Shown: positions 26,708 through 46,640, numbered from the stretch's first letter. The stretch is DNA of 64,000 nucleotides from Eubacteriales bacterium (GCA_045658925.1 JAZOVV010000072.1:17280-81279); one strand, 5' to 3'. The notes: generated by a model not told the origin, from the sequence alone. A program made the numbers and translations.

Positions 26708-26747
26708 AAAACCCGTAGTTGCAAATGCAACTACGGGTTTATTTTTG
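26708..26747. terminator. bidirectional terminator
   Basis: AAAACCCGTAGTTGCA..TGCAACTACGGGTTT with T-runs on both strands. Confidence 0.7.
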
Positions 26748-26794: not shown

Positions 26795-26825
26795 GGTTGG
26801 TTGAACCAACTTGTTTTTGGGAAGA

Positions 26826-29800
26826 TTACATCAAACCGTTCTTTACAAGGAACTGCTCGATGTAGAGGTAGATATCGTCAAAGGTCATCAGACCCTTGCC
26901 AATAGAAACCTTGAGGTAGGATGCCGGGAATGCTACGTAGAATTCGTAAGGCAGGAATTCCTCAAAGTCCTCATAGGTGAACAAGCCATATTCCTCGATG
27001 TCTGCTTGCATCTTTTCCTCGTCGTAAACAAGATCGTCACCGTACTCAAAGATGTTAAACAATCCGGTAATACCGCCGGGGATGGAGAACAAACCGTCGA
27101 CGAAGTAGTTGAGGTGGTAAACAGTTACCAAACTGTAACAACCGGTGTACTCAACTGCGAGGGTTGCATCTGTCATTGTGACACGTTCAAAGCCGTTTTC
27201 ACTTTGCATTGCGAACTCGTGACCGATAAAGTCAGTGTGGTTTTGCTCTGTAATGTAAACGTACTTATTAAGTGTCAAGTCGAAGTATGCGTGCTCGTAG
27301 ATGAGCTTGGTGGTTGTACCATCGCTGAAGGTGAGGGTAATGACGTTGTATTCTTTCCAACCGTCATTCTCAATGAAGATGATGCCTGCGGCTTCATATT
27401 CGCCCGTTTCGTGGTTGAATACGAGCAGAATGTCGTCCATAGTCAAATCTTCAACCTTCTTTTGCGTACCGTCTGCCAAGGTAATCAACGTACCTGCGGT
27501 GATACATTCCTTGTTTCGATAATGAATGTTATACGAAAGCTCTGCGGAACCTACTTCAGTCCAGCTTGTCGGCAAGGTATGATCACCGTTCGACGAGCTT
27601 ACGGTAAACTTAATGTAATGTCCGGGAATGACATAGTATGTTGCATTTGCATTATTCACTGCAGAGGGTTCAGCATACACACCACCGTCGGCGGCAGTCG
27701 AACTAACCTTAATAGCATATTTAGCAGCAACAGCGCTACTTCCGTCAGCATCCTTAGTTGCCGTAACAGAAATCTTTGTTTTGGTTCCCCAAACAATATT
27801 GATTACTGTGTCAGTCGACAAAGAGTAGTCGGTGTTTGCGTTTTCCTTACCAAACTCTGCACCGTTCAACGTCCAAGACAGGAAGTAGTGGAGTTTGTTT
27901 GCATCATCGATTACGCTATCATTTGCCGTTGCATTGGGCAACTTGATAGTCGTGCCGGACATATACCAATATGCCTTGCCATACTCAAGCGTTGCGCTAC
28001 CGTTTGTAATCAAATCGGTGTAAACGCCTTGGTCATTCGCCGTGTAGGTAATGGAAACCTTATCAATCCACTTAGCCGTCAGGGTGTATTCTCCGGAAAC
28101 AGACGTGTCAATAAAGCTGAAGTCTGTTACCTTTTGACCGTTGTAATACCAGCCCTCAAAGTACTTGTTTATTGTTACATCGGTTTGATAGCTATCGGGA
28201 ATGGTGGGCAGAGATGCCGTAGGCAACTGCGAAGGCGTGTAGATAGCAGTATCATTGTCGTAAGGAACGTCACCGAAATGGTCGTTCTCAAACTTGATTG
28301 TAAACTGTTTGCTGGTCCACAAGCCGTAGATGGTAGCATTGCCGCCAGAAATTTCAAGCAATTCAGCACCGCTGATGCTGATGATAAGCTCTGTGCATGC
28401 CGCATCCTTATACCAACCAACAAACGTACCTGTACCCGTAGGTATCGGGAGAGTGATGCTTGCGGTTTCTACGTTGAATTCAATCGCGCCCGGCAATGTG
28501 TTTGCGGGTTCGCTTCCAACTTCCCAACCCTCATATTTAAAGTTGAAGTTGAGCGTGTAAGGTTGAGGCGTCCATTGAGCGGTCAGTGTAATACCGTTTG
28601 CAAGATCTACATTGGCAGGAAGTGCACTGCCTTGGCTTACAATATTGCCGTTTGCATCCTTCCAACCCATAAAGATGTAATGTGCTCTGGTGGGAGTAGG
28701 AAGCTCGGGATATACTGTATCACTCGTGGAAATTATGAGAGAGGATACTGCATCGCCCTCGTTTGCATCAAAGTGAATGGATATAGACGTTTCCCAAACA
28801 CCGTTGACATACTCCCAAGTTTTACCCTTTACGGGAGCAATAGCGGTTTTATCAGCCTGTACAAGCTTTGCTTCCTCTGTAAACGTGTTCCACTCGTTAA
28901 CAGAAGAGAAGATGGAAAGTGCACTGATGTTGGTTATCTCATACATGGTGTAGGAAGTACCCGAATTAATGGTTACTTTTGCTCCTTCGGTATTGGAATA
29001 CACCTTGCCGCCGAAGTAATCGCAATTCAATTCGCCATTGACAGTGAGAATAGCAGCCGGCTTGTTGGGATAACGATAGTGAGCGTTGTGATATGCACAA
29101 TTATCCACAAAGGTTTCGTAAACAACAAGCGTGTTGATATCAACCATTACCCCTTCTTCAATGGTAAGGGATGCACCGTTCATCAACTTGAAGCGTTGTC
29201 CCATTTCAAAGAGCGCTACTTCATTTTCGCCTTGGAGGAGGTTGCCGTTAGCATCCCTCAAATCACTCTTGCAAAGCGTAATATTGTAGTGATACGTCAA
29301 CGGGAAGAAGCAGTCATTTGTACTTACTGTTGCAACATTCTCAATGTCAAGCTTCATCGCTTGCGTCTTGGCTCCGCCATAGATCGTCAAATCACAGATT
29401 TCGGTTGCAGGATCATACTTGGCTTGCAAATAGCTATACGACTTGTTCAAAACAATAGTTGCATCTGCCCTAATCTTATCGCTACCGATAAAGGTTACAG
29501 TGGTCGTATTGTTGTTCTCGGTCGATCCTGTAAAGAGCGACGCCCAAACGGCCAAAGCTCCACCGTAGTAGATTGTCAGCTTGGGAGATACGTTCATCAT
29601 CAAGAATCTGTTGTAAGGAGATACCCAATAAGGACTCTTCATACTGTTTTTTGCGGCTGCCATGTAACTACCGTCTCTGAAATCCTTAATTGTGTAAGGT
29701 TGGAAGAGAGTTGCTCCGGATTGAATAATAACTTCACTGCCATTATTCGCGCTTGACTCACGAATGAAGCCTGCCGCATAGATCTTACTTCCGTTCTCAG

Positions 29801-32800
29801 AAATGATCTTGGCGCCCGCATCGAGAACCAAAGTTGCATGCTTACCTGCGGTAAAGCCCGCGTATTGTGCATGTGCGCCACCGCCGGAGAGCTCACCGCC
29901 AATTTCCAAAATGCCCTTGTTGGTAATGGTCTTGCCTGCGGCAAGAATGACCTTAACGATGCACTTGTTGGGATCTTGCTCGGACGGATAGTGACCTTCG
30001 TTGTTTTCGTGTACTCTATACTTGTCGCCGCCATTGTGCGAAGTATAGCTATTGGAGTTAGTGTAGTCACAAGAACCACCGTGGAGCTCGAAGAAGGGTT
30101 GATCGCCGGTCCATTGGTTTCTACCCATCCTATCGGTTGCAACTCCGTAAGGCAGAAGCAGTTTTACACCGGATTTGATCTCTACGTTTTCTTTGATGTA
30201 GATAGGTCCGAGATCTGCATCGTGAGGCCGTACGCAAACCGTCTCGCCGGATACTGCAGCCGCAAGTGCAGCCTCGATGCTGCCGTACTCTGTGCTATCA
30301 ATCACCGCTACCGTTACAAAATTGATATTGTACTTTGTTGTAACGGTTTTGTAGTTGGCTGTATCGGTAGGTGTAAACGTGAGCTCGATATAACCGCCAC
30401 TGTTTGCAACGAACGTAGGTGCGCCCCACGTAAAGGCACCGGGAACGTTTGCATTTGCGTGCGTTGCGCCCATACCGCTATAAGAGTATGTGAACTGATT
30501 TAGATAGTACTTGTCTTTATTGCCACCGCCAAATGTAGGTGTACCGGTCAACGAGGGTGTTGCTTGGTTGATAACAAATGCAACTTCATCGGTTGTAACT
30601 GCGTCATAGTTGTCGGTCTTATCAACTACTGCTCTTACCTTGTAGTTACCTGCCTTGGTGGGAACAGTCTTGCTCCACGCGCCATCAGCGAAATACTCGA
30701 AGTAGTAAGGAACAGAAAGATTCATCTGAACAGTAGGAGTGCTTGCTGTTTCGTTGTAATTCCAGTTGCTGATTGCAAGACCGGAAAGTGTAACGGTTGC
30801 CTTTGTAATCTCATACGTGACGGTCTTATTGGCAACGTCGCTTGTATCCTCGCCCCAATAAGAGCTATCGGTGTCAAGGAGTTGGAGCTCTACCGAGTAC
30901 GTGCCAACATTTGTACCACCGTTGTTAACAACAACTGTATAAAGTCCCGCGGGAACGGTGGGCTTTTGCAATGTGGTGTTGTACGTCAGGTTACCAATGG
31001 TAGGAACTGCAACAGAGGTTGCAAGAATTTCAACAGAACGGGTTGCAGATACAATCGAGCAGTTGGGGTCGGTTGTGGTGAACTTCAACTCGTAACTGCC
31101 CTTCTTTGTGGGAAGTCCTTCGGTGTATTCACCGGTCGAACCGAGTGCTCTGTATGCAACTGTCCATCCGCCGTACTTAACCTCAACGGTAATGTAGCTG
31201 TTTACTACGTCTTCCGTCGTGCCGTACTGCCATTGAGCATTGTTTCCAATGCTTACGGAAATGGTGTTTTCTACTGCCAGGATGGAGTAGGTCGCCGTTG
31301 CCGTTGCACTTGTGTTATCAACGCTGGTCCAAGCATAGTTTGCGGGAGTGTTGAGCGTAAGCGTTACGGTGTAATCGCCCTTGTTGAGAGGATTCTCTGC
31401 TTCGGTTACGGTATAAATATCGGAAACAAGTCCCGAATACTGTACCTGACCGTTGTAATCCTTGTTTGCAATGCTCGGAACAGGAACAACAGCCTTGGCG
31501 ATTGTGAACGATTGAGCTTCACTCTCTGCCTCGTTGAGGTTATCGTTGCCTGCAAATACTGCCTTGACGTAGTAGGTGCCTGCGTTAACGGGGAGTTCGA
31601 TTTCAGCGGTGCATGCAGCATCGGTGAAATACTTGAATGTGATTTGACCGTTGCTGCTTTGTGCAAAGGTCTCGTTAAAGCTTGCAACAGGCGTCTTAGC
31701 AGATTCGCCATACGTCCAGCCATTGATAACAGGCTTGGAGATAGTAACGTCTGCCTTTTCAACCTTTACGGTAACGGTCACGGTTGCGCCCTTGTGAGTA
31801 TCGGTCTCTGCAAGAGTGATAACCACTTTGTATTCACCTGTGTTGGTAACACCCGTGAATTCGCTGCCGTCCGCCTCGTAGGTGTAACTAAGAGCGTTAC
31901 CGTTCGAAGCAGTAGCGGAAATCATATGAGCACTACCGTTATAGGTAAAGTTGTAAATTTCGTTTGCCGTGATAGACGTGTTGATCTTGGCAATGGTGAA
32001 GGTAGCTTCGGTAACAGACTCTGCCGTAACTTGATAGTTAGCGTTTTCTTCTACCGTTACTCTTACTGTGTAATTATCGGCATCGGTGGGAACAGTTGTG
32101 CTCCAAGTTAAGCCATCTGCAGAGTATTCAACAACGTAAGGAACGTCTCCGACGAATTCTTTGCTGATGGAAACAAGAGGTGCATTTGCCGCTTGACCGT
32201 AGGTCCATCCGTTGATGGTGATCGAAACTGCAACGTCTGCCTTGCCAATGCTGTAAGGAACAGTGGTAGTAGCGGCATCGGTGGTTGCCCACTTGTAGTT
32301 TGCGCTATCCGTCAAGGTCAGGGTTGCGTTGTAACTACCAAAGTTCTTTGCCACATTGCCGGAAACGGTGTACAAACCGGATTCGACAGGAATAACTGCC
32401 GTGATATCGCTACCCGTGTAGGTGTATTCCTTGGTGTATTCGGTAGGAGCGTTAACCGTCTTTTTAGCAACGGTAATGGTAATCTCTACATCACGACGGT
32501 TGTAGTTACCTGTCGCATCGGGAGTAAAGATCGCCTTGAAGCTTTGAGTGCCTGCATTGCCTACTGTGGTAGCTTCGGTTACACCTTCAATGCTCCATGT
32601 ACCTTGAATACCTGTGGGAAGCGTGATGATATCCTTGAGCAGGTCACCGTAAGTTGCGGTGTACTCAACAGTGATATCTTGGGTATTTGTTGCGGGGGTA
32701 ATGCTGTAAGTGAAGGTCTTATTTGCAGTTGTGCCGTCGTTCCAAACGTAGTGTTCGCTCGTCAAAGAGATTGTTGCGGTGAAGGAACCAACATTGGTGC

Positions 32801-35800
32801 GTCCTTCATCTGCAATAACGGCATAACCTGTGCCATCCGACAGATCGGATTTGATGAGACTTCCGCTATAAACGAAGCTCGATTGCATTTGCTTGGGAGG
32901 TGTAATAACTCTCTTGGTAATCGAGAAGTTTATAGTTTCGGTGAGGATGGTGTAGTTATCATCCGTTGTTGTAAATCTCGCTACATAATTACCGGGAACC
33001 TCGGGAAGTTCGGTGCTGTATGCACTGTCGAGGGCGTCGGCAGGTTTATACTCAACCAAAACATCGCCGTGCAATGCGGTTGCCTTGCCTGCGTGATCGC
33101 CTTCGCTCTCATATTCCCAAGAAGAGATGGTAGGCAGTTTGCCTTCAACCCATGCGTTAATAGCGGTAGAAATCACAAACTTGAGGGTGATAGATACATC
33201 CTCTGTGCTCTCCCACTTGTAGTTGTCAGCATCTACAAGAGCAAGAACAACGTCGTACTCACCGTGGTCAACGCCACCGTCATCTACAACGGTGTAAAGG
33301 TCGTTAGAAATCAAACCGGAGTAGAGTCGATCACCTGTGTATTCTTTGGGGTTGATGATCGGCTTTCCAACCGTCTTCTTTGCAACAACAATGGTAATTT
33401 CTACTGTACGACCGTTGTAGTTGCCTACCTCGTCGGGTTCAAAAATTGCCTTGAAGGTGTTGGTGCCTGCATTGCCTACTGTGGTAGCTTCGGTTGCACC
33501 CTCAATGCTCCATGTACCTTGAACGTTTGCAGGAAGCTTGACGATATCCTTGAGCAGATCGCCGTAGGTTGCGGTGTAAGAGGTCTTTTCGAACTCTTGG
33601 GTGTTTTCAATAGAAGTGATATTGTAAACGAGTTCCTTAACTGCGCTTGTGCCATCTTTCCAGATGTAGTTAGTGCTTACAAGCGTTACCGTTGCAGTGT
33701 AAGGTCCTACGTTTGTTCCACCGTTATCAACAACGGTGTAGCCTTCTGCGGCAGTCAGACCGGATGTTTGATTCTGTCCGTTATAAGGCTTATTGGAAAC
33801 AGTGGGAACTGTAACAGCCTTTTGTGCAACCACAAATGCGGTTGCTTCGCTTGCTGCTGCATTCAGGTCGTCGTTGCCTGCAAAGATCGCCTTTACGTAG
33901 TATGTGCCTGCATTGGTGAGATCTGTGATTTCATTCTTACAATCGGCATCGGTGAAATACTTGAGGTTGATTTGACCGTATGCGAATGTCTCATTGAAAT
34001 GAGCAGAAGGTGCCTTTGCAGCTTCACCATATGTCCATCCCTCGATAACGGGTTTAGAAATGGTGACGGTTGCTTTGTTAATCGTTACTTCAACCGTTCT
34101 CGTTGCACCCAAGTAATTGGGACCTTCGGCAACGGTGTAAGTAATGGTGTATTCGCCTGCGCCGATGATTGCGTCAACGGTTCCGTCGACACCCTGCTTG
34201 GTGATAACCTTGGTAACGGTTGCACCGTTGGATGCCTTAACACCGGTGAGCGTAAATGCTGCGCCATTGTAAGATTCTACGTAAGAATCGTTTACGCCAT
34301 CAATAGAAACACTAGCCTTTGCAACGGTAAACTGAACAAAATCAGTGGTATAACCGTTCAGGTTTGTGTTGCCGGCAGCGGTTGCCTTTACGTAGTAGGT
34401 GCCTGCATTTCTGGGTGCGGTAGCACCGATAGAGTTGTAATCTTTGTCGAAATACTCAAGAGTTACGGTGGTGTAATCCTCAAATGTAACGTCATAAGTA
34501 GGAGCATTTGCCGTTTGACTGTATCTCCAACCAGCAATGCTAAAGTTGGAAATAACAATATTTGCCTTGCCGATTGTATAAGCAAGCGTAATAGTAGCGG
34601 ATTCGCTATTGCTCCACTTATAGTTTGCACTGTCGGTAAGCGTCAAGCTTGCCAGGTATCCGCCCGCTCTTACATCGGTATTGGTGTGATTTGCAATATC
34701 GTAGAGGTTCGATGTGGGAATGTCGACAGTAATCGGAGATCCGTTATAAACGTAATCCTTGGTATATTCGGGAACATTAACGGTTTGTTTTTCAATGGTG
34801 AACGCACAGGTTTGAACCAGATCGAAGTAGTTTGCATAAACAACAGTAAATCTTGCAACATACTTGCCTGCATTGGTGGGACGCACTGTGGTGTATGTGC
34901 TATCATCTGCCGATGCAAGCTTGTATTCAATCTTAACATCGCCAAGCACTGCGCTTGCCGAGCCGTTGTTGCCCGCTTGACCGTATACCCAAGAATTGAT
35001 TACGGGTTGAGTGGTCCACGCATTGGTGGCGGGAGTGATACTGTACTCTGCCTCAAAGGTAGATTGTACGTTCGGGTCGTTCCATTCATAACTGGTTGTA
35101 TCGAGAACAACCTTTGCCTTGTACGTACCAACGGTTGTGCCGCCGATATCCTCAACGGTATATCCTTCGGCAGAAGCCAAACCGGAATTGAGGAGCGCAC
35201 CGGTGTAAACCTGCGATTTGTTTGTACCGGAAATTTGAGGTACGTCAATCTTTTTCTTTGCAACTTTTACGGTAATCTCTACCTCGGCGAAATTGTAGTT
35301 TTCGGTTGTGGGGGTAAAGACTGCCACAAATTTGTGCTCGCCAACACTGCCAACCTTGGTGTTTTCATTTGCATTGGTGGTTGCGTCAAGCTCAATGGTC
35401 CAATTTCCTTCGTTGTTCTCGGGGAACTTGACCACGTTGAGCAAAAGGTCACCAAATGCCGCGGTGTCTACGGTGGGCTTGCCGGCATCTGCCTTGGCAA
35501 CTGTTACAGTAGCCGTAACAACGGCTTCCTTATAGTTGGTGGTTGCGGGAAGCGTGAACGTAACAACGTATTCACCTGCATTGAGAATAGAGTCAACCTT
35601 TTGACCGTTCAACTTGTATTCAACAGCAAGTTCACTTACCGTATGGTTTGTGGTAATGCCTTCCAATACAAATGCATTTTTGTTGTAGGTGAAGTCGTAA
35701 TGATCCTTTACGCCCTCAATCTTGGCGGTTGCCTGTTCTATCTCAAGCGTAAACTGACCGGGTACGGAATTATAGTTGGTCTTATACTCATCGTAGGGAG

Positions 35801-37622
35801 TAAATACTGCCTTATAGGGCTTACTTCCGGCAGAAAGTGCGATGTCGCCGGGGGTTTGATTTTCGTCAACAACCCACGTATACTGACCCATATCGCTTGT
35901 GGGAAGTGCAATTTGACCCAAGGTGAGGTTGGGATTCCAAACTCCGGTAAGAACAACCTTATCGAATACGGTATCGGGATTGATCTTGTTAATCTTAAGC
36001 TTTTCGCTTACGTCGCTTGCTTTGTAGTTTTGGTGTTCGAATTTAAGAGTGATACTATGCTCGCCTGCGTTGATGTAGGCAGGATTTTCAAGCACGGTAA
36101 AGCTTTCGTATTGTTTGCCGTTGGCATCCTTAATAATATAAGAAAGCGTATGTTCTTGACCGTTGTAGTCGAACTCTTTTTTGCCAACGATCTCGATAAT
36201 CAGTTCTTTTTTCTCGACCTTTATTTGAACCGTACGTTCAATGACGTCATACTTGTCGAGGTCTCTGGGGGTAAATACGGCAATGTGCTCTTGGATACCT
36301 ACGTCACCAACCAAGGTGTCGGGGTATTTCCAAGACCATGTACCGTTACCGTTTTGGCTATCCTTGAAGAGCACATCTGCAAGTGTATCCTCGTAAATGG
36401 CAAAATCCTGCTCCAATACGGGGTCTGCAACGTCAAGAACGCTCGACTGAACAGTCAGTGTGCCCTCTTGAACATTGAGAATGACATTCGGGTTCGATGC
36501 CGTTGCGGTCAGCGTATACACACCGGCTCCGGCAACGATATCCTCAGGCTGAGTAACAGAGAGGCCAATCAGCTGAGCAACTGCTTCTGCACTCACATCA
36601 CCAATACCCAAGAGTTGATACTCAACCGTAGGATACGGTGTGCCCGCAACCATTTCGTAGCTGTTGATTTTAACCGTGATAGCTGCACGTTTGATTTCGT
36701 ATGTGCCAACGAGAGCACCCTCGTAATTGTCGGCATCAACTTCAAAGTAATAGTCGTATGTGCCGGCATCGGTATAGTTCGCTCCGGGAGTTTCAAAGAA
36801 AACGATTTCGAATCTTTCACCCTCTTGAGGAACTACATCTGTTTTGAAGGTAGGCTTTTGAACCGCACCGTTGTAAACAAAGCTTTCTACAACGTCAGAG
36901 AAAACAACGGTTTTCTTTGCTACGTTCACCGTAAGGGTATCGGTTGCGAGAACCGCTCCGGTTGCGTATTCAACGAAGCTGACGGGGAAAGTATGCTTGC
37001 CAACGTTACCGACGGTGCCCTCGGGTGCATCAAACTTCCATTGGCCAATAACGGTGTAAGGAAGATTGATTGCCGCGAGGTTATCTCCATAGGTTGCCTG
37101 AATCTCGGAGAGTGTCGGAATAATGGGTTCGTAAACGGCGTGGAAGGTCATGTTGTCGGCGATAACACCGGGAATTTCCGTAGACCAACCAACAAAATTG
37201 TAACCGGGTTTTTCCAGATGTACAACCTCGCCCAATTCGGCTCTGTTGAGCACGTGGACGCTTTGATATACGTCACCGTCAACCAAAAATTGGAGTTTGT
37301 ATTTTACGATGACCGGAAGGTTGAACGACTGACCGGAATAGTTGAATTTCAGTATGTGCGCACCGACCCTGGAGGTATCGACATGGGAGGTTACCATAGA
37401 AGCCTCTACGGGTACTTCTGTCGATACACCGTTTTCGGTTCTTGTGATTGTAATACGGCTCAAATCCATTGGCTCGCCGTACGTTGTAATTCCATCGAAA
37501 TTACTCACATTCAACTGATAGCTGATGCCGTCTTTATCCGTTCGCTTGCCACATGCGTTCATTGCAAACACACCTGTAACAATTAGGGTTAGGACGGTAA
37601 TCCAAACGATAATTCTTTTCAT
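26826..37622 (-). CDS. giant (3,598 aa) secreted/surface repeat protein: signal peptide, ~two dozen MBG-like YxG repeats, beta-helix-like module, InlB-B repeats, C-terminal Hint domain + acidic tail
   Basis: Uninterrupted ORF with RBS AAAGGAGAA. N-terminus is MKRIIVWITVLTLIVTGVFAMNAC. Reiterated F(V/T)YNG/YTG..P units, GW-containing repeats and CITAGTLITLADG... Hint. The antisense ORFs are nonsense. Confidence 0.9.
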   Translation of the reverse strand: MKRIIVWITVLTLIVTGVFAMNACGKRTDKDGISYQLNVSNFDGITTYGEPMDLSRITITRTENGVSTEVPVEASMVTSHVDTSRVGAHILKFNYSGQSFNLPVIVKYKLQFLVDGDVYQSVHVLNRAELGEVVHLEKPGYNFVGWSTEIPGVIADNMTFHAVYEPIIPTLSEIQATYGDNLAAINLPYTVIGQWKFDAPEGTVGNVGKHTFPVSFVEYATGAVLATDTLTVNVAKKTVVFSDVVESFVYNGAVQKPTFKTDVVPQEGERFEIVFFETPGANYTDAGTYDYYFEVDADNYEGALVGTYEIKRAAITVKINSYEMVAGTPYPTVEYQLLGIGDVSAEAVAQLIGLSVTQPEDIVAGAGVYTLTATASNPNVILNVQEGTLTVQSSVLDVADPVLEQDFAIYEDTLADVLFKDSQNGNGTWSWKYPDTLVGDVGIQEHIAVFTPRDLDKYDVIERTVQIKVEKKELIIEIVGKKEFDYNGQEHTLSYIIKDANGKQYESFTVLENPAYINAGEHSITLKFEHQNYKASDVSEKLKINKINPDTVFDKVVLTGVWNPNLTLGQIALPTSDMGQYTWVVDENQTPGDIALSAGSKPYKAVFTPYDEYKTNYNSVPGQFTLEIEQATAKIEGVKDHYDFTYNKNAFVLEGITTNHTVSELAVEYKLNGQKVDSILNAGEYVVTFTLPATTNYKEAVVTATVTVAKADAGKPTVDTAAFGDLLLNVVKFPENNEGNWTIELDATTNANENTKVGSVGEHKFVAVFTPTTENYNFAEVEITVKVAKKKIDVPQISGTNKSQVYTGALLNSGLASAEGYTVEDIGGTTVGTYKAKVVLDTTSYEWNDPNVQSTFEAEYSITPATNAWTTQPVINSWVYGQAGNNGSASAVLGDVKIEYKLASADDSTYTTVRPTNAGKYVARFTVVYANYFDLVQTCAFTIEKQTVNVPEYTKDYVYNGSPITVDIPTSNLYDIANHTNTDVRAGGYLASLTLTDSANYKWSNSESATITLAYTIGKANIVISNFSIAGWRYSQTANAPTYDVTFEDYTTVTLEYFDKDYNSIGATAPRNAGTYYVKATAAGNTNLNGYTTDFVQFTVAKASVSIDGVNDSYVESYNGAAFTLTGVKASNGATVTKVITKQGVDGTVDAIIGAGEYTITYTVAEGPNYLGATRTVEVTINKATVTISKPVIEGWTYGEAAKAPSAHFNETFAYGQINLKYFTDADCKNEITDLTNAGTYYVKAIFAGNDDLNAAASEATAFVVAQKAVTVPTVSNKPYNGQNQTSGLTAAEGYTVVDNGGTNVGPYTATVTLVSTNYIWKDGTSAVKELVYNITSIENTQEFEKTSYTATYGDLLKDIVKLPANVQGTWSIEGATEATTVGNAGTNTFKAIFEPDEVGNYNGRTVEITIVVAKKTVGKPIINPKEYTGDRLYSGLISNDLYTVVDDGGVDHGEYDVVLALVDADNYKWESTEDVSITLKFVISTAINAWVEGKLPTISSWEYESEGDHAGKATALHGDVLVEYKPADALDSAYSTELPEVPGNYVARFTTTDDNYTILTETINFSITKRVITPPKQMQSSFVYSGSLIKSDLSDGTGYAVIADEGRTNVGSFTATISLTSEHYVWNDGTTANKTFTYSITPATNTQDITVEYTATYGDLLKDIITLPTGIQGTWSIEGVTEATTVGNAGTQSFKAIFTPDATGNYNRRDVEITITVAKKTVNAPTEYTKEYTYTGSDITAVIPVESGLYTVSGNVAKNFGSYNATLTLTDSANYKWATTDAATTTVPYSIGKADVAVSITINGWTYGQAANAPLVSISKEFVGDVPYVVEYSADGLTWSTTVPTDADNYTVRVTVEENANYQVTAESVTEATFTIAKINTSITANEIYNFTYNGSAHMISATASNGNALSYTYEADGSEFTGVTNTGEYKVVITLAETDTHKGATVTVTVKVEKADVTISKPVINGWTYGESAKTPVASFNETFAQSSNGQITFKYFTDAACTAEIELPVNAGTYYVKAVFAGNDNLNEAESEAQSFTIAKAVVPVPSIANKDYNGQVQYSGLVSDIYTVTEAENPLNKGDYTVTLTLNTPANYAWTSVDNTSATATATYSILAVENTISVSIGNNAQWQYGTTEDVVNSYITVEVKYGGWTVAYRALGSTGEYTEGLPTKKGSYELKFTTTDPNCSIVSATRSVEILATSVAVPTIGNLTYNTTLQKPTVPAGLYTVVVNNGGTNVGTYSVELQLLDTDSSYWGEDTSDVANKTVTYEITKATVTLSGLAISNWNYNETASTPTVQMNLSVPYYFEYFADGAWSKTVPTKAGNYKVRAVVDKTDNYDAVTTDEVAFVINQATPSLTGTPTFGGGNKDKYYLNQFTYSYSGMGATHANANVPGAFTWGAPTFVANSGGYIELTFTPTDTANYKTVTTKYNINFVTVAVIDSTEYGSIEAALAAAVSGETVCVRPHDADLGPIYIKENVEIKSGVKLLLPYGVATDRMGRNQWTGDQPFFELHGGSCDYTNSNSYTSHNGGDKYRVHENNEGHYPSEQDPNKCIVKVILAAGKTITNKGILEIGGELSGGGAHAQYAGFTAGKHATLVLDAGAKIISENGSKIYAAGFIRESSANNGSEVIIQSGATLFQPYTIKDFRDGSYMAAAKNSMKSPYWVSPYNRFLMMNVSPKLTIYYGGALAVWASLFTGSTENNNTTTVTFIGSDKIRADATIVLNKSYSYLQAKYDPATEICDLTIYGGAKTQAMKLDIENVATVSTNDCFFPLTYHYNITLCKSDLRDANGNLLQGENEVALFEMGQRFKLMNGASLTIEEGVMVDINTLVVYETFVDNCAYHNAHYRYPNKPAAILTVNGELNCDYFGGKVYSNTEGAKVTINSGTSYTMYEITNISALSIFSSVNEWNTFTEEAKLVQADKTAIAPVKGKTWEYVNGVWETSISIHFDANEGDAVSSLIISTSDTVYPELPTPTRAHYIFMGWKDANGNIVSQGSALPANVDLANGITLTAQWTPQPYTLNFNFKYEGWEVGSEPANTLPGAIEFNVETASITLPIPTGTGTFVGWYKDAACTELIISISGAELLEISGGNATIYGLWTSKQFTIKFENDHFGDVPYDNDTAIYTPSQLPTASLPTIPDSYQTDVTINKYFEGWYYNGQKVTDFSFIDTSVSGEYTLTAKWIDKVSITYTANDQGVYTDLITNGSATLEYGKAYWYMSGTTIKLPNATANDSVIDDANKLHYFLSWTLNGAEFGKENANTDYSLSTDTVINIVWGTKTKISVTATKDADGSSAVAAKYAIKVSSTAADGGVYAEPSAVNNANATYYVIPGHYIKFTVSSSNGDHTLPTSWTEVGSAELSYNIHYRNKECITAGTLITLADGTQKKVEDLTMDDILLVFNHETGEYEAAGIIFIENDGWKEYNVITLTFSDGTTTKLIYEHAYFDLTLNKYVYITEQNHTDFIGHEFAMQSENGFERVTMTDATLAVEYTGCYSLVTVYHLNYFVDGLFSIPGGITGLFNIFEYGDDLVYDEEKMQADIEEYGLFTYEDFEEFLPYEFYVAFPASYLKVSIGKGLMTFDDIYLYIEQFLVKNGLM

Positions 37623-37740: not shown

Positions 37741-40700
37741 TTATTTTTTTCTTGCAACAAAATCGTAAGCCTTTTCGCTTGCCAAAATCTTTTCCTGTTC
37801 TGCGGGATTAAACGTAGATTTGTTGTTGAAAATGAAGAAGTGGAAGTTTTCGTCACCTGCGGCAGCACTCAATTCGGAACGTCCTACTACACCCAGCGAG
37901 ACGTCGTACTGTGCAAGCTGATTAACAATGCTGCTATCGGAATCGAAAACGCAATAGTTTTTGCCGCCGCCAAAGAATGCGATACCTGCATGAACGTAGT
38001 CCTTGCCACCGTTGTGCTGGGTAACGATGTCTGCATAGTCATAACCAACGGCGCTTTTGGCTGCATTAATCATTTCTTGTATGTTGAGTTCCATTTCAAA
38101 GGGAGTACCGCCGGCATTGACAACTACGCCATTGACCTCAATCAAAGTAGAACTGTTAACGTCATCAACTGCCTTCCAGTTGTAAAGCCCAACCTCACCC
38201 TCAAAACGAAGCTTTGCACCGTACGAGGTTTTTGCAAGGTCGTACCAAGTACCGTGAATGTTGGATAAGGCAGGCATTGCTTTTGCTCCGTCATGAAGCA
38301 TACCGCCCGCAAAGTGCGAATCCATACCAATGGCAAAAATACCGGAGTCTTGGAATACGGAATCTCTTACTGTAATAAAGGTGTTAATAAATGCTTCATC
38401 GTATGCTTGCTTTTGTTCATCTGTAAAGTTATAGTACGTCTTTTTTGCGTTGTAAGCATTAGAAGCCTTGAAGGGGAGCTTGGAGGTATCGTACTGATAA
38501 TCCTCTGGGAAGGAAATGCTGTGGGGTACAAACACCTCATTTCCCTTTTCATCAGTAACATAATATCCACCATCGATAAACTGGTTCGAACCAACTCTCA
38601 TAATGAACTCTCTTGCCTGTGCAAGAATGGAGTTGGTAACGGTTACGTGAATATCCTTGGCATCGTCGTCAATGTCACCGAATGCGCGAAGCACGGTTCT
38701 GCCGTTTGTCAATCTGGAATATGCAATGGTAACGTTATCGCCAAATACCTCAACCGTGGTACCGATGTAATTCAATTCCACAAGGTTCAAGCTACCGGAG
38801 CCATCGTCGCCCAGGTCGCATCCGCGAAGCTCAACGTTGGTAACCGTAACACCCTCATAAAGAGCAAAGCAGATGTTATCCTGTGCCTTTACGCTGATGG
38901 TTGCTCCGTTATCCATAATCAATCGAACAAAGTCGAGAGGACCTTGGAAAAGCGCATTGGGATCTTGGTCCTTAGCACCATCACCGTTCTTGTCTTCGCC
39001 AAGCTTATAGGTGATGTTATCCGCACTGATTTTTTTGTTGTTGCCGTAAAGGTCGTTTCTGAATTCCAAAAGGATTTTTACCGTCGCCTCGTCCTCAATA
39101 CCTGCATTCTTGTAATAGGTATCGTCGTAGGTGGTGTGAATCGTTGTATATTTTTCAACATATTCCCCACCGATGTAACCGAAGTCATCCGTTACGTTGG
39201 TTTGCAGAACGATGGGATGATCGGTCGCCTTGGTTGCGTAGTAAAGGTCTGCATAGCTGTAAACGTTGATACCGTTCTCTACACAGCGAACTGTGAAACG
39301 GTTGCTTTCCATTTCAACGCCCGCATAAGAGAAGGAAACGTAGAACTCAACCTCGCCCAAGAAGTTTTCACCGTCATCAACAAAAGAAATGACGCCGGTC
39401 TTTTCGTCAATCATTACCTTATCGGGCATAGACGACTTCCACTTGAGGTTTGCTACACATTCTGCACTGATTTCATCGCTGAGAAGCTGATAGTTCAGAG
39501 CAAATACATTGTTGCCGGATGCTGCGCTAACAAGTGTGCGTACAAGCTCACCGTTTGCATCTCGCTTGAGTTTACCGGTTGTTTCATCAATAGCATATTC
39601 AAACTTATAGCCACCAACGGTGAGGAGGTCCTCAAGGCCGTAGGTTTCGGAAGCCTCAACAACGTCGATTTTTGTAGGCTTTACAACAACTGTTGTCGAA
39701 ATAGTGATAACCTGACTGGGGTCTTGCTCGCTTTGAATGGTCAACGTAACCGTTGCATATCCTGCCTTGCTTGCCTCTACAAGAACGTTTTTACCAACCG
39801 TTCTAACAGAGATATAATCGTTGGAGGCTGTTACCTCTTTGCAAATAATCTTTGCGTCCTCGGGAATGAGGGTGTAAGGAAGTTGAACCTTCTGTCCTAC
39901 GTTGATTGCAAAGGTTTCGCTGTTAAAGGCGGCCTCGATTTTGTCTACCTTGGAAACCTCGCAGGACTTGGTAAACGTATCACTGCCGGATTGGAAAGTA
40001 ATGTCAATTCTTACGCGTCCAACGTAAGCCTTGTCAACAAATCGATAGCTAAGAACAACGTCTTCGCCATCAATGCTGAATTCCGCCGCAATAACAGAAT
40101 TGGGGATGGGATTGCCGCTTACAGCATCAAAAACTTGATACGAAAGGTTTGCGGCGGTAAATGCTTCGGTAGACTCAATGGAAATCGGGATGTATCCCAC
40201 ATCTTGGAAGGTCGTAATTTGAGCCATGCCAAGGTCCATCGTGTCGGTGTTCTTTACAACGATATCGATGCTATCGGTGATAGTTGCATCGTCATCGGAA
40301 ACAACCGTGATGGTTGCCGCGCCCTTGCGAAGAGCACGAACCTCACCTGTATCCGAAACGGTTGCTACCGAGGGATTGGTGGATGTATAGTAAAGAACCT
40401 TGTTAGATGCATTCTCGGGGCTAAAGGTTGTGGTAACTTGTGCTTTTTCGCCTACCACCAACTCGTTTTTATCGATGGTTGCATCAATGGATTGCAGTTT
40501 TGTGGAAATAACGTGAATAACAACACTCGCCGGGAAGCCACGCTCAATGGTTGTAAGCGTAAGCTTTGCAGAGCCTGCGGCCAAGGGAGTAATAACAACC
40601 TTGCCCTCTTCCTCCATATTGAAGTCGAACTCTGCTACGGGTGCTTCACCGTATGCCTCAACGCCGACGTAAACGCCCTTGTTTTTAGCACCGGTGGGAT

Positions 40701-40890
40701 AAACGGTGTACTCAAGCGTGTATGATGTATCACCCTTGTCCATATACAAATAAATGATCTTGTCGCCGGTAATCTCAATGCCTTCTACACGAACATCAAC
40801 CAAATTGGCAACCGTTTGTGATGCGGCAAAGAGGAGTATCATAACGACGATCGGAATAATCAGCAAAAGTAATATCAGTTTTTTTGCCAT
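37741..40890 (-). CDS. signal-anchored 1,049-aa protein: Big_2-like Ig repeats + C-terminal beta-helix-like half
   Basis: RBS AAGGAGGA. N-terminal TM is LILLLLIIPIVVMILLFAA. Big_2-type segments (…ATVSDTGEVRALRKGAATITVVS…). The C-terminal half is rich in short beta-repeat patterns. Confidence 0.8.
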   Translation of the reverse strand: MAKKLILLLLIIPIVVMILLFAASQTVANLVDVRVEGIEITGDKIIYLYMDKGDTSYTLEYTVYPTGAKNKGVYVGVEAYGEAPVAEFDFNMEEEGKVVITPLAAGSAKLTLTTIERGFPASVVIHVISTKLQSIDATIDKNELVVGEKAQVTTTFSPENASNKVLYYTSTNPSVATVSDTGEVRALRKGAATITVVSDDDATITDSIDIVVKNTDTMDLGMAQITTFQDVGYIPISIESTEAFTAANLSYQVFDAVSGNPIPNSVIAAEFSIDGEDVVLSYRFVDKAYVGRVRIDITFQSGSDTFTKSCEVSKVDKIEAAFNSETFAINVGQKVQLPYTLIPEDAKIICKEVTASNDYISVRTVGKNVLVEASKAGYATVTLTIQSEQDPSQVITISTTVVVKPTKIDVVEASETYGLEDLLTVGGYKFEYAIDETTGKLKRDANGELVRTLVSAASGNNVFALNYQLLSDEISAECVANLKWKSSMPDKVMIDEKTGVISFVDDGENFLGEVEFYVSFSYAGVEMESNRFTVRCVENGINVYSYADLYYATKATDHPIVLQTNVTDDFGYIGGEYVEKYTTIHTTYDDTYYKNAGIEDEATVKILLEFRNDLYGNNKKISADNITYKLGEDKNGDGAKDQDPNALFQGPLDFVRLIMDNGATISVKAQDNICFALYEGVTVTNVELRGCDLGDDGSGSLNLVELNYIGTTVEVFGDNVTIAYSRLTNGRTVLRAFGDIDDDAKDIHVTVTNSILAQAREFIMRVGSNQFIDGGYYVTDEKGNEVFVPHSISFPEDYQYDTSKLPFKASNAYNAKKTYYNFTDEQKQAYDEAFINTFITVRDSVFQDSGIFAIGMDSHFAGGMLHDGAKAMPALSNIHGTWYDLAKTSYGAKLRFEGEVGLYNWKAVDDVNSSTLIEVNGVVVNAGGTPFEMELNIQEMINAAKSAVGYDYADIVTQHNGGKDYVHAGIAFFGGGKNYCVFDSDSSIVNQLAQYDVSLGVVGRSELSAAAGDENFHFFIFNNKSTFNPAEQEKILASEKAYDFVARKK

Positions 40891-40941
40891 TTAAGGATCC
40901 TCCTTAGCATTTGGTGCGTACCTATTATGCGGTCGCACAAA

Positions 40942-43343: not shown

Positions 43344-43421
43344 ATTTTTCCTCCCGGAGGGCGTTTCCCTTGCGGCCCATACCGTCTTCGGGGTTGCCCT
43401 TCTTTTTAATTTCGTGCTTTT

Positions 43422-43492
43422 AAAAAAAAAATACACCGCTCCCAACCCATCTATCGCTATAATAGGATATGAAAGATGATTGTGGACGGTGT
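43422..43492 (-). promoter_or_regulatory. leader hairpin followed by T10 (attenuator-like) in the 5' UTR of the ABC/giant-protein locus
   Basis: Long imperfect stem closed by ACACCG/CGGTGT (43433-38 / 43487-92). T10 on the minus strand corresponds to A10 at 43422-43431. Confidence 0.5.
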
Positions 43493-43503
43493 TTTGTGAA
43501 CTC

Positions 43504-43532
43504 ATTATAACACATAACGAGATGCTTGTCAA
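43504..43532 (-). promoter_or_regulatory. consensus sigma-A promoter of the ABC/giant-protein locus
   Basis: Minus strand TTGACA (43527-32), 17 nt spacer, TATAAT (43504-09). Confidence 0.75.
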
Positions 43533-43599
43533 TGGTTTTCCTTTCCAATTTCCCAAAAAGAAACAAATTTACACAATTCTTTTCGCTTTATTTACACTT

Positions 43600-46618: not shown

Positions 46619-46640
46619 CGTTTCTTTTAATCCTATCAAA

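What the first reader, a model, noticed from the sequence alone, without database searches (positions are those of the whole stretch)
26829..27506. Hint (intein/Hedgehog-type) autoprocessing module plus an unrecognised 85-aa acidic tail at the extreme C-terminus of the 3,598-aa surface protein
What the sequence shows:
- The last 226 aa begin ...HYRNKE|C-ITAGTLITLADGTQKKVEDLTMDDILLVFNHETGE. This is a Cys-1 followed by the Gly/beta-strand pattern of Hint block A.
- They continue through ...LIYEHAYF... (a His at a block-B-like position).
- The Hint part ends ...CYSLVTVYHLNYFVDGLFS. This resembles the terminal VYN..V...HTYFV motif of toxin-associated PT-HINT domains.
- 85 residues follow (26829-27083). 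They are strongly acidic and aromatic (EYGDDLVYDEEKMQADIEEYGLFTYEDFEEFLPYEFYVAF...) and match nothing I recognise.

Established knowledge:
- Hint domains catalyse an N-S acyl shift at the bond preceding Cys-1, followed by cleavage or ligation.
- In polymorphic toxins they release the C-terminal toxin.
- In Hedgehog a ~70-aa C-terminal region recruits the nucleophile that becomes esterified to the N-terminal product.

Inference, two options:
- (i) Self-release of a small acidic C-terminal module. No immunity-like gene follows: the gene is followed by terminators and convergent genes.
- (ii) Hedgehog-like transfer of the 3,372-aa ectodomain onto an envelope nucleophile, which would be a sortase-independent anchoring route. 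I recognise no LPXTG, SLH or other C-terminal anchor in the protein.
As far as I can tell, neither has been described for this protein class.
Basis: partly seen in the sequence, partly recalled or inferred. Interest (0 to 1): 0.85.

Follow-up and report, generated by a model that had tools for sequence, protein, structure and literature searches.

The report
Hedgehog-like self-cleaving tail on surface proteins
The giant surface protein ends in a 226-residue unit made of a self-cleaving Hint domain and a conserved helical domain with no known relatives; the unit closes thousands of surface proteins of uncultured gut Clostridia and is laid out like the autoprocessing end of animal Hedgehog, so it may be an unrecognised way of maturing or anchoring bacterial surface proteins.

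Summary
The gene at 26826..37622 (-) encodes a 3,598-aa protein. Its last 226 residues are a Hint domain (Cys3373 to Ile3514) followed by an 84/85-aa acidic, aromatic tail.

- **Hint domain:** only sub-threshold in Pfam and NCBIfam. AlphaFold2 gives pLDDT of about 98. Foldseek matches inteins, BIL domains and Hedgehog HhC (E 4e-8 to 3e-6).
- **Conservation:** in 300 unique modules Cys1 is present in 299/299, His72 in 297 and Asp/Glu46 in 280. Residues 1-72 align without gaps to Drosophila HhC, placing these on C258, D303 and H329. The intein His-Asn end is replaced by Met/Ile-Pro.
- **Tail:** it is not an orphan. It has 1,871 cluster representatives. It follows this Hint in 142 of 145 proteins checked, and the other three are short fragments. 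It nearly always lies at the extreme C-terminus of secreted proteins of 500-5,484 aa. It is as conserved as the Hint (Asn151 299/299) and matches nothing in PDB, BFVD, Pfam or NCBIfam.
- **Toxin reading:** rejected.

My favoured reading is a bacterial Hog-like cassette that cuts itself off through a Cys3373 thioester (about 0.75). The tail would select or gate the nucleophile. Transfer to a non-water nucleophile is favoured but unproven (about 0.4). This is a new variant of a known kind.

The parts
26826..37622 (-). Gene for the 3,598-aa surface protein (stop codon included). It has MBG_3 and Listeria-Bacteroides (Flg_new) repeat domains and is acidic overall (pI 4.5).
37551..37622 (-). N-terminal signal peptide or lipobox-like anchor, aa 1-24 (MKRIIVWITVLTLIVTGVFAMNAC).
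   Evidence: Read from the sequence. The close homologue P0122 has FAMSAC, and L046/L009 have a canonical LVAC lipobox. Lipidation itself is inferred.
27504..27509 (-). Predicted scissile junction Glu3372|Cys3373. Cys3373 is module position 1, the nucleophile for the N-S acyl shift.
   Evidence: Cys1 is present in 299/299 aligned modules. It aligns to Hedgehog C258. The preceding 33 residues are disordered in the model.
27081..27506 (-). Hint domain, aa 3373-3514 (module 1-142).
   Evidence: AlphaFold2 pLDDT is about 98. Foldseek: DnaB intein 1mi8 E 4e-8, TM 0.85; BIL2 6y75; C. thermocellum BIL 2lwy; Hedgehog 1at0 E 3e-6, TM 0.78. PF01079 is sub-threshold here (15.1 bits) but above threshold in the relatives P0116 and P0027.
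27369..27371 (-). Glu3418 (module 46). The position is acidic in 280/300 modules and is collinear with Hedgehog D303 (HhC D46), the general base for sterol activation.
   Evidence: Gapless HMM alignment of module 1-72 to Drosophila HhC 258-329. Conservation. The role is inferred.
27291..27293 (-). His3444 (module 72), the block-B histidine. It is collinear with Hedgehog H329.
   Evidence: 297/300 modules; alignments.
27078..27095 (-). End of the Hint fold, G-L-F-S-I-P (module 138-143; family consensus NGMLSMP), where inteins carry NG-x-x-x-His-Asn. There is no terminal Asn, so no intein-type C-terminal cleavage is expected.
   Evidence: Conservation (S141 287/300, P143 289/300). The last strand of the model is residues 177-180 of the 264-aa query. 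Matching to block G is by hand (inference).
26829..27080 (-). Tail domain, aa 3515-3598 (module 143-226). An ordered PGG-x-x-G-L-F-N-I-F segment is followed by four helices. Net charge is -13. Asn3523 (codon 27054-27056), Phe3525 and Gly3546 are near-invariant (298-299 of 300 modules).
   Evidence: Tail-only model has pLDDT 91. No match in PDB, BFVD, Pfam or NCBIfam. There are 1,871 cluster representatives. It always follows the Hint. Conservation.
26709..26740 (.). Bidirectional hairpin terminator shared with the convergent gene 25933-26703. No further gene of the operon lies downstream.
   Evidence: sequence
37741..43556 (-). Upstream genes that recur next to cassette genes in other genomes: ABC-2-type ATPase (42612-43556), 557-aa multi-pass membrane protein with no family (40942-42615), and a 1,049-aa Big_2 protein (37741-40890). 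Any link to the cassette is unproven.

Best explanation
The last 226 residues are a self-contained, Hedgehog-'Hog'-like C-terminal autoprocessing cassette: a Hint domain plus an obligatory accessory domain.

1. The protein is exported by Sec through its N-terminal signal.
2. The cassette then folds, and Cys3373 attacks the Glu3372 carbonyl (N-S acyl shift). His3444 assists. The peptide bond becomes a thioester.
3. The Hint lacks the intein terminal His-Asn, so it cannot splice or cut its own C-terminus. The only outcome is resolution of the thioester by an incoming nucleophile.
4. This frees the 3,372-residue mature protein from a 25-kDa Hint-tail fragment.
5. I propose that the conserved acidic residue at position 46 (Glu3418), the counterpart of Hedgehog D46, activates that nucleophile.
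6. I also propose that the conserved tail, which packs on the Hint, recruits or gates the nucleophile. The new C-terminus would then be esterified or amidated to a cell-envelope molecule rather than simply hydrolysed.

What is shown: the fold, the catalytic-residue conservation, the collinearity with HhC, the obligatory Hint-tail linkage, and the C-terminal position on many secreted proteins. What is inferred: cleavage itself (about 0.75) and transfer to a non-water nucleophile (about 0.4). The identity of the nucleophile is unknown.
For: **Fold**
- AlphaFold2 gives pLDDT of about 98 over the module and pTM 0.83, even though the first 33 residues are disordered.
- Foldseek matches inteins, BIL domains and Hedgehog HhC at E 4e-8 to 3e-6.

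**Catalytic residues under selection (300 unique modules)**
- Cys1 299/299, His72 297, Asp/Glu46 280, Asp76 281, Tyr82 298, His96 288, His131 278.

**Relation to Hedgehog**
- Module 1-72 aligns without gaps to Drosophila HhC 258-329. This puts Cys1, Asp/Glu46 and His72 on C258, D303 and H329.
- PF01079 is the best Pfam model. It is hit by 21 of 30 members. P0116 scores 35.8 bits over profile positions 13-148, above the gathering score.
- An Asp or His that activates cholesterol is the feature said to distinguish Hog-Hint from other Hint types (PMC7765530).

**No other reaction available**
- There is no His-Asn at the Hint end.

**The tail behaves as a functional domain**
- It has 1,871 representatives at 50% clustering.
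- It directly follows the Hint in 142 of 145 proteins checked, and the three exceptions are fragments under 155 aa.
- Mean pairwise identity is 52% for the tail against 49% for the Hint, and the two correlate at r = 0.73.
- Asn151 is present in 299/299, Phe153 in 298, Gly174 in 298 and Lys204 in 296.
- Its first 10 residues fall from a pLDDT of about 94-98 in context to 73 when modelled alone, so they pack on the Hint.

**Distribution typical of a sorting or maturation signal**
- At least 403 loci were found in species-representative genomes.
- The cassette lies at the extreme C-terminus in 85 of 87 open reading frames examined: 83 end 0-27 residues after the match, and four (L035, L030, L021, L023) carry 41-54 more. 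The two exceptions are L031 (34 further residues) and L029 (a 363-aa acidic extension).
- Host proteins are unrelated to each other (Flg_new, MBG, subtilase, Ig-like) and carry N-terminal signals. Several copies can occur per genome.
Against: - There is no experiment on any member.
- Two Hedgehog catalytic positions are not kept. Thr69 is Ile/Val. The position that is collinear by hand alignment with Cys143 is Pro (289/300). Cys143 forms the branched intermediate in Hedgehog (PMC12054796).
- The window protein already has a lipobox-like N-terminal anchor, so it does not need a C-terminal anchor.
- Its -1 residue is Glu, whereas the family mostly has Ser or Gly.
- The cassette is strongly acidic (tail -13, Hint -16). 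That is awkward for binding anionic wall polymers or membranes directly.
- No candidate nucleophile-supplying partner gene is conserved next to it, apart from an ABC-2 operon seen in about 10 of 80 loci.
- Plain hydrolysis would explain the cleavage equally well.
Confidence: 0.42

Rival explanations
1. Self-cleavage by hydrolysis only. The cassette is a removable pro-domain. The thioester is resolved by water and the protein ends in a free carboxylate. The tail serves folding, gating (for example by cations) or some transient role in export or quality control.
For: - The fold and catalytic evidence is the same as for the favoured reading.
- Bacterial intein-like domains are known to cleave their N-terminal junction without any adduct (PMC7765530).
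- The window protein has its own N-terminal anchor.
- The tail profile has weak EF-hand-like hits to centrin and calmodulin (E 0.6-0.8). The acidic composition would also fit cation-dependent gating.
Against: - Known hydrolysing Hint domains need no accessory domain. Here an 84-aa domain is as conserved as the catalytic domain, with near-invariant polar residues.
- The acidic residue at the Hedgehog D46 position is kept in 93% of modules. In Hedgehog that residue serves transfer, not thioester formation (established knowledge).
- The EF-hand lead is not backed by Pfam (1 of 37 tails, E 0.08) or by Foldseek (best E 6.7, TM 0.2).
Confidence: 0.3
2. Thioester used outward. The C-terminal thioester at the distal end of an N-terminally anchored fibre reacts with an amine or hydroxyl on another protein, a host or food surface, or another subunit. 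This would be covalent adhesion or 'clip-and-link' polymerisation.
For: - The window protein and several relatives are probably lipoproteins, which places the cassette far from the anchor.
- The host proteins are adhesin-like, with MBG_3, Flg_new and Ig-like domains.
- Many have cleavable N-terminal signals that would leave free amines.
Against: - A single-turnover thioester that forms on folding would be short-lived.
- Nothing points to a target.
- A tail conserved across very different host proteins and taxa argues for a partner common to all of them.
Confidence: 0.08
3. Polymorphic-toxin type pretoxin-HINT that releases the 85-aa tail as a toxin or effector.
For: HINT domains just before C-terminal toxins are common in secreted bacterial toxins (PMC3482391). 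The tail is small and follows a Hint.
Against: - The tail is conserved rather than polymorphic, with 52% mean identity over 300 modules and 1,871 representatives.
- PF07591 does not match.
- No immunity gene follows; instead there is a terminator and a convergent gene.
- Without a terminal Asn the tail cannot be separated from the Hint.
- It is the N-terminal parts that vary.
Confidence: 0.03
4. Catalytically silent Hint fold kept as a structural or binding module, with no processing.
For: - Block-B Thr is absent.
- The Hedgehog C143 position is Pro (hand alignment).
- The window protein is below Pfam thresholds.
Against: Cys1 in 299/299 and His72 in 297/300, across sequences only about 49% identical, is hard to explain without catalysis.
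Confidence: 0.07

Closest known systems
Hedgehog C-terminal autoprocessing domain (HhC / 'Hog' = Hint + sterol- or adduct-recognition region; Pfam PF01079)
   Same: - The position and layout match: a secreted N-terminal cargo, a Cys-initiated Hint of about 145 aa, then an accessory region of about 70-85 aa at the extreme C-terminus.
- Residues 1-72 align without gaps, with Cys1, Asp/Glu46 and His72 in register.
- PF01079 is the best-matching Pfam model, and it is above threshold for some members.
- Neither has a terminal Asn.
   Different: - This cassette is bacterial (gut Clostridia).
- Thr69 is Ile/Val, and the C143-collinear position is Pro.
- The tail is an acidic, confidently folded four-helix domain with no detectable similarity to the sterol-recognition region.
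- Any nucleophile is unknown.
- The window protein scores below the Pfam gathering score.
Bacterial intein-like (BIL) domains, especially B-type (Amitai 2003; Dassa 2004, as summarised in PMC7765530)
   Same: Both are Hint domains in variable, secreted or surface bacterial proteins. Both have the N-terminal intein motifs but lack the canonical C-terminal motif. N-terminal self-cleavage has been shown for BILs. The C. thermocellum BIL 2lwy and the Tetrahymena BIL2 6y75 are structural matches.
   Different: BILs are described as embedded in hypervariable regions and without a fixed partner domain. Here the Hint is always fused to one conserved tail at the very C-terminus. A-type His-Asn is absent. 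Pfam Hint_2 (PF13403) is absent from the window protein and all 30 A1 members; two relatives hit it below its 28.4-bit cut-off (P0023 24.3 bits, P0116 15.5 bits).
C-terminal Hint-like domains of secreted proteobacterial and myxobacterial proteins (Burglin 2008, PMC2362128; Dassa & Pietrokovski)
   Same: A Hint-like domain at the C-terminus of signal-peptide proteins, of roughly Hog length, regarded as a further Hint subgroup of unknown function.
   Different: The taxa and N-terminal regions differ, and no conserved post-Hint domain was reported. The sequence relationship to the present family was not tested here.
Pretoxin HINT (PF07591) of polymorphic toxins
   Same: A Hint near the C-terminus of large secreted proteins that releases what lies on one side of it.
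   Different: There is a conserved rather than polymorphic C-terminal partner, no immunity gene, no PF07591 match and no terminal Asn.
Sortase/LPXTG and other C-terminal sorting signals (T9SS CTD, PEP-CTERM); analogues in logic only
   Same: A portable C-terminal element shared by many otherwise unrelated surface proteins in a genome. It would be removed through a thioester that a nucleophile resolves.
   Different: Here the catalyst would be built into the substrate (single turnover). No separate transpeptidase is implied, and nothing about attachment has been shown.

Membership tests
HINT superfamily (fold level) | Horseshoe-shaped all-beta Hint fold | tested here: met
   AlphaFold2 pLDDT is about 98. 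Foldseek finds 61 PDB matches at E<=1e-3, all of the top 50 being inteins, BIL or Hedgehog; the best has TM 0.85.
HINT superfamily (fold level) | Nucleophilic Cys/Ser at position 1 and block-B His | tested here: met
   Cys1 299/299 and His72 297/300.
HINT superfamily (fold level) | Autocatalytic N-S acyl shift and cleavage | not testable with these tools
   This needs biochemistry.
Intein | C-terminal (His-)Asn and a +1 Cys/Ser/Thr nucleophile, with insertion inside a conserved host protein | tested here: not met
   The end of the fold is NGMLS-M-P (window: DGLFS-I-P). What follows is a dedicated tail, not a resumed host protein.
Hedgehog Hog domain | Cys1, Asp46 (or His) general base and His72 in register | tested here: met
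   Gapless alignment of residues 1-72 to Drosophila HhC. Asp/Glu46 is present in 280/300 modules; the window protein has Glu3418.
Hedgehog Hog domain | Thr69 of the TxxH motif | tested here: not met
   Position 69 is Ile or Val (81/83).
Hedgehog Hog domain | Cys143 (branched-intermediate nucleophile, PMC12054796) | tested here: inconclusive
   Hand alignment of VNGMLSMP to VNSVAASC puts Pro143 (289/300) at this position. HMMER did not align this half. Ser141 (287/300) and a second Cys at position 123 or 133 (75% of modules) lie nearby.
Hedgehog Hog domain | Accessory region after the Hint that is homologous to the sterol- or adduct-recognition region | tested here: not met
   An accessory domain is present in the same place, but no similarity was found. 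PF01079 matches stop at profile position 148 of 213.
Hedgehog Hog domain | Pfam PF01079 gathering score (29.7 bits) | tested here: not met
   The window protein scores 15.1 bits. The relatives P0116 (35.8) and P0027 (30.1) pass.
Hedgehog Hog domain | Transfer of the N-terminal product to a non-water nucleophile | not testable with these tools
   This needs mass spectrometry of the mature C-terminus.
Pretoxin HINT / polymorphic toxin | PF07591 match, variable C-terminal toxin, adjacent immunity gene | tested here: not met
   There is no PF07591 hit. The tail is conserved. A terminator and a convergent gene lie downstream.
BIL A-type | Conserved C-terminal His-Asn | tested here: not met
BIL B-type | Intein N-terminal motifs without the canonical C-terminal motif, in variable secreted proteins | tested here: inconclusive
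   The description fits, but no B-type model or sequences were available for a test. Pfam Hint_2 (PF13403) does not match the window protein or any A1 member; it gives sub-threshold hits in two relatives, P0023 at 24.3 bits and P0116 at 15.5 bits against a 28.4-bit cut-off.
EF-hand / dockerin (for the tail) | Canonical Ca-binding loops and fold | tested here: not met
   The tail profile hits centrin and calmodulin only at E 0.6-0.8. Pfam EF-hand matches 1 of 37 tails. Foldseek's best hit has E 6.7 and TM 0.2. NCBIfam dockerin_GC scores E 0.16.

The most novel reading that the evidence does not exclude
The cassette is a true bacterial counterpart of the Hedgehog Hog domain. After export, the Cys3373 thioester is resolved by an envelope or environmental nucleophile chosen by the tail. 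Candidates include a peptidoglycan or lipid II amine, a wall glycan or glycolipid hydroxyl, or even a host sterol. Thousands of surface proteins of gut Christensenellales-like bacteria would then be covalently anchored by a substrate-encoded, single-turnover, sortase-independent reaction. This would also give a prokaryotic relative for the Hint-plus-adduct-recognition architecture, whose origin is open (PMC2362128).
Probability: 0.3. Interest if true: 0.9.

Novelty: new variant of a known kind. Interest (0 to 1): 0.7.

Why it matters
- Hint domains are known. A fixed Hint-plus-accessory-domain cassette at the C-terminus of bacterial surface proteins, collinear with Hedgehog HhC down to the general-base position, is not in Pfam or NCBIfam, and I did not find it in the literature searched.
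- It is abundant, with at least 1,871 clusters at 50% identity. It marks the largest surface proteins of uncultured gut and rumen Clostridia (Christensenellales and relatives), whose envelope biology is almost unknown.
- If it transfers its cargo to a nucleophile, it would be a new covalent protein-anchoring route in bacteria. It would also bear on the origin of Hedgehog autoprocessing.
- If it only hydrolyses, it is still a new self-removing pro-domain family with a domain of unknown fold.
- It could serve as a single-turnover C-terminal ligation tag for protein engineering.
- The hypothesis can be tested directly with a 300-residue construct.

Tried and rejected
- **Toxin reading:** rejected, because the tail is conserved, there is no immunity gene, PF07591 does not match and there is no terminal Asn.
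- **EF-hand or dockerin reading of the tail:** the tail profile gave weak hits to centrin and calmodulin (E 0.6-0.8), and NCBIfam dockerin_GC scored E 0.16. Only 1 of 37 tails touches a Pfam EF-hand model. Foldseek finds no EF-hand or dockerin. The AlphaFold2 helices do not match EF-loop geometry. I kept this only as a lead.
- **Similarity of the tail to the human SHH sterol-recognition region:** hhalign probability 0.05.
- **Phage origin:** tblastn of the module against 50,697 phage records found nothing.
- **Mean-field DCA on 299 modules (Meff 197) to find Hint-tail contacts:** the result was noisy and dominated by the gap-affected position 221. The one suggestive pair, position 46 with position 220 (rank 7), may be phylogenetic, so I did not use it.
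- **Conserved-neighbour search for a partner enzyme:** only an ABC-2 operon in about 10 of 80 loci, and SipW-like peptidases in 5 loci.
- **Literature:** eight searches found no description of this cassette.
- **Caveat on protein lengths:** the short lengths (200-460 aa) are mostly truncated gene calls or contig fragments. Open reading frames in genome loci are 800 to more than 3,500 aa. For example, P0066 is listed as 454 aa but its ORF is 939 aa.
- **Model coordinates:** these were not available, so I could not measure the geometry of the tail relative to the active site.
Full report
**Observation.** The window carries one long ORF on the minus strand, 26826..37622, encoding 3,598 aa.
- Cys3373 is encoded at 27504-27506, and a tblastn self-match of the last 226 aa spans 27506..26829.
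- The last 85 residues have 17 acidic against 4 basic residues and 18 aromatic residues. That is 20% and 21%, against 11% and 11% for the rest of an already acidic protein of pI 4.5.
- Downstream lie a bidirectional hairpin terminator (26709-26740) and a convergent membrane-protein gene.
- No LPXTG-like end exists in the window.
The near-identical homologue P0122 has FAMSAC, and L046/L009 have a canonical LVAC lipobox.
- The body of the protein has MBG_3 and Listeria-Bacteroides repeat domains, as expected for an adhesin-like surface protein.

**Is it a Hint domain?**
- Curated libraries barely see it. Pfam PF01079 gives E 0.017 (15.1 bits; the cut-off is 29.7). NCBIfam gives only weak hits to the intein portions of intein-containing models. 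PT-HINT and Hint_2 do not hit.
- With a 103-sequence alignment, AlphaFold2 gives a model with pLDDT of about 98 over residues 34-264 of the query and pTM 0.83. The 33 residues before Cys3373 are disordered.
- Foldseek against the PDB returns only Hint-fold proteins at the top. These are the Ssp DnaB mini-intein 1mi8 (E 4e-8, TM 0.85 on the target), Tetrahymena BIL2 6y75, the C. thermocellum BIL 2lwy and the Drosophila Hedgehog 17-kDa fragment 1at0 (E 3e-6, TM 0.78). Each aligns over about 150 columns.
- The fold assignment is therefore secure.

**Which kind of Hint?** I assembled 300 unique modules from 84 genome loci, 145 cluster representatives and 120 first-round homologues.
- Conservation: Cys1 299/299; Asp12-Gly13 287/296; Gly35 298; Asp/Glu46 280; Glu71 277; His72 297; Asp76 281; Tyr82 298; Gly95-His96 293/288; Phe98 299; Ser125 285; Thr128 271; His131 278; Ser141 287; Pro143 289.
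- A family profile aligns to Drosophila Hedgehog (PDB 6td6) without a single gap from Cys258 to His329. Module Cys1, Asp/Glu46 and His72 fall on C258, D303 and H329. Gly13, Phe44, Leu58 and Gly63 are also shared.
- D303, also written HhC D46, is the residue that activates cholesterol. An Asp or His at that site is what distinguishes Hog-Hint from other Hint types (PMC7765530; PDB 6tyy 'D46H').
- PF01079 is the Pfam model most often hit: 21 of 30 members, against 4 for Intein_splicing and 0 for PT-HINT and Hint_2.
- Two relatives pass the PF01079 gathering score, and P0116 matches profile positions 13-148, which is the whole Hint part.
- Differences from Hedgehog: Thr69 is Ile/Val. By hand alignment (VNGMLSMP against VNSVAASC), the position of Hedgehog Cys143 is Pro. 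Cys143 is now known to carry a branched thioester intermediate (PMC12054796).
- The same segment corresponds to the intein block G, NG-x-x-x-His-Asn. The His-Asn is replaced by Met/Ile-Pro, so intein-type C-terminal cleavage or splicing is not available.

**The tail.**
- Modelled alone, it is a confident domain (pLDDT 91) consisting of a short irregular segment plus four helices.
- Its first ten residues (PGG-x-x-G-L-F-N-I) fall from a pLDDT of about 94-98 in the whole-module model to 73 when the Hint is absent. Together with the high pTM, this indicates that the segment packs on the Hint.
- Foldseek finds nothing in the PDB (best E 6.7) or BFVD (best E 4.6).
- A 37-sequence tail profile finds nothing significant among PDB sequences, and the tails match no Pfam family.
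- A phmmer search of the 85 residues against 1.84 billion cluster representatives gives 1,871 hits at E<=1e-3, of which 1,009 are at E<=1e-10.
- In the best 150, the tail lies at the very end of proteins up to 5,484 aa long.
- With separate Hint and tail HMMs, 142 of 145 proteins have the Hint immediately before the tail. The three exceptions are fragments of 89-154 aa.
- Four proteins, plus L029, continue after the tail with extremely acidic low-complexity sequence.
- The tail is as conserved as the Hint: mean pairwise identity is 52% against 49%, correlated at r = 0.73.
- It contains positions as fixed as the catalytic Cys: Gly148 298, Asn151 299/299, Phe153 298, Asp169 291, Gly174 298, Lys204 296.
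- Net charge across the family is -9.6 +/- 2.8.
In everything examined, the tail always follows this Hint.

**Distribution and hosts.**
Almost all are in uncultured gut or rumen Firmicutes labelled Clostridia, Christensenellaceae, Eubacteriales, Oscillospiraceae or 'Bacilli'. The closest to the window are 80-88% identical.
- In the 84 loci, the cassette ends the ORF in almost every case. 83 of 87 open frames stop within 27 residues of the match; four (L035, L030, L021, L023) run on for 41-54 residues, L031 for 34 and L029 for 363. Host ORFs are 800 to more than 3,500 aa.
- One MAG (JAZOCA01) contributes three of the 80 genome-scan loci, and three further loci carry two copies each.
- N-terminal regions differ (Flg_new, MBG, subtilase, Ig-like).
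- About 85% of full-length hosts have an N-terminal hydrophobic signal: lipobox, a recurrent 'S-x-W-[LIV]-I' type, prepilin-like, or ordinary.
- All source names are 'hypothetical protein'.
- There are no phage relatives.

**Mechanism.**
- The cassette has everything needed for the first Hint step, the N-S acyl shift at Glu3372-Cys3373. It has nothing for an intein-type second junction.
- The simplest prediction is that Hint and tail leave together as a 25-kDa fragment. The 3,372-residue protein is released with its C-terminal carbonyl passed to a nucleophile.
- Whether that nucleophile is water or something else cannot be decided here.
- I favour a non-water nucleophile at about 0.4, against about 0.3 for hydrolysis, for three reasons. 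Known hydrolysing Hint domains need no accessory domain, yet here one is obligatory and under selection as strong as the active site. The Hedgehog general-base position is kept acidic in 93% of modules. The cassette is distributed like a sorting signal over many unrelated secreted proteins.
- Against this: the window protein probably has its own lipid anchor. The cassette is very acidic. Thr69 and Cys143 are not kept. No partner gene is evident.

**Rivals.**
- The toxin-release reading fails. The tail is conserved, no immunity gene follows, PF07591 does not match, and there is no way to cut the tail from the Hint.
- A silent structural Hint is unlikely given an invariant Cys1 and a near-invariant His72 (297/300).
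- Outward use of the thioester, for covalent adhesion or polymerisation, remains possible but has no specific support.

**Comparison with what is known.**
- Hint families described so far are inteins, Hog, BIL-A, BIL-B, Vint and a poorly characterised C-terminal Hint-like group in proteobacterial secreted proteins (PMC7765530, PMC2362128).
- The present family behaves like a B-type BIL in lacking the C-terminal motif. In register and in architecture it is closest to Hog.
- I file it as a new variant of the Hint/Hog kind, not as a member of Hedgehog Hog sensu stricto. The sterol-recognition region, Thr69 and Cys143 are not met, and PF01079 is sub-threshold for this protein.
- Literature searches found no description of it.

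**Verdict.** This is a widespread, unannotated, Hog-like autoprocessing cassette with a domain of unknown fold. Interest is 0.7. The decisive experiments are simple and are listed under next steps.

Noticed in passing
window 37741-43556 (-); also L009, L018, L019, L042, L046, L053, L074 upstream, and L011, L015 downstream: A recurrent gene order lies beside cassette genes: an ABC-2-type ATPase (42612-43556), then a 530-557-aa multi-pass membrane protein with no Pfam or NCBIfam match (40942-42615), then an 800-1,049-aa Big_2 surface protein (37741-40890), then the Hint-terminated protein. It is seen in about 10 of 80 loci. Upstream flanks are often hidden by the giant gene, so the true frequency may be higher.
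   Followed up: partly
host proteins in L010, L011, L013, L018, L019, L034, L037, L041, L042, L053 etc.; neighbours e.g. L018 5732-6409, L053 5779-6456: Many cassette proteins share an N-terminal hydrophobic helix ending in an 'S-x-W-[LIV]-I' motif (e.g. GASSWLII, GFSTWIIL). So do small 215-290-aa proteins encoded immediately upstream of them. A SipW/archaeal-type signal peptidase I gene lies in 5 of the loci (L038 2682-3386; TIGR02228 65.8 bits). This suggests a dedicated N-terminal processing class.
   Followed up: partly
L036, L052, L071; P0230, P0257: Some cassette proteins begin with a prepilin-type (class III) signal such as KKGFTLVELVIVIAV. These are pilin-like N-termini joined to a Hint-tail C-terminus.
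   Followed up: no
L001 5424-10768 (same in L002, L003): Four lipoprotein paralogues have near-identical signal peptides and first ~90 residues but different C-terminal parts. They are followed by a 255-aa Hint+tail ORF with only about 23 residues before Cys1 and no signal peptide. This could be an orphan or decayed cassette, or a recombination reservoir.
   Followed up: partly
module positions 123 and 133 (window Cys3495; Asn3505): A second cysteine occurs at position 123 in 132 of 300 modules or at position 133 in 93 of 300, never at both. 75 modules have neither. The two sites flank the block-F Ser125/His131 region. This could be a contact pair, or an optional redox or relay cysteine near Cys1.
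   Followed up: partly
P0250, P0251, P0264, P0265; L029 (ORF ending about 1,090 nt after the tail): A few family members continue beyond the tail with 180-450 residues of extremely acidic Glu/Pro/Thr/Ser-rich low-complexity sequence. The tail therefore tolerates C-terminal extension.
   Followed up: no
window 26709-26740 and 26773-26811: A 14-bp-stem hairpin flanked by T-runs on both strands serves as a shared terminator for the two convergent genes. Two further plus-strand terminator-like hairpins lie between it and the stop codon of the giant gene.
   Followed up: yes
window 44505-46729 (-) and 46641-49064 (-): A family-2 glycosyltransferase, a UDP-galactopyranose mutase (PF03275, E 6e-86) and a GH3 glycosidase lie just upstream of the ABC operon. 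These are galactofuranose-type envelope glycan genes next to the surface-protein cluster.
   Followed up: no
L004 8543-11365 versus protein P0066: Proteins returned by the homology database are often truncated gene calls. P0066 is listed as 454 aa, but the open frame with a signal peptide is 939 aa. Lengths in such tables should not be read as protein sizes.
   Followed up: yes
window 25048-25929 (+) and 25933-26703 (+): The convergent downstream genes encode a BspA-type leucine-rich-repeat protein with an acidic/basic low-complexity end, and a 256-aa multi-pass membrane protein. The latter is conserved in synteny only in the closest relatives (e.g. L006 3994-4710).
   Followed up: no
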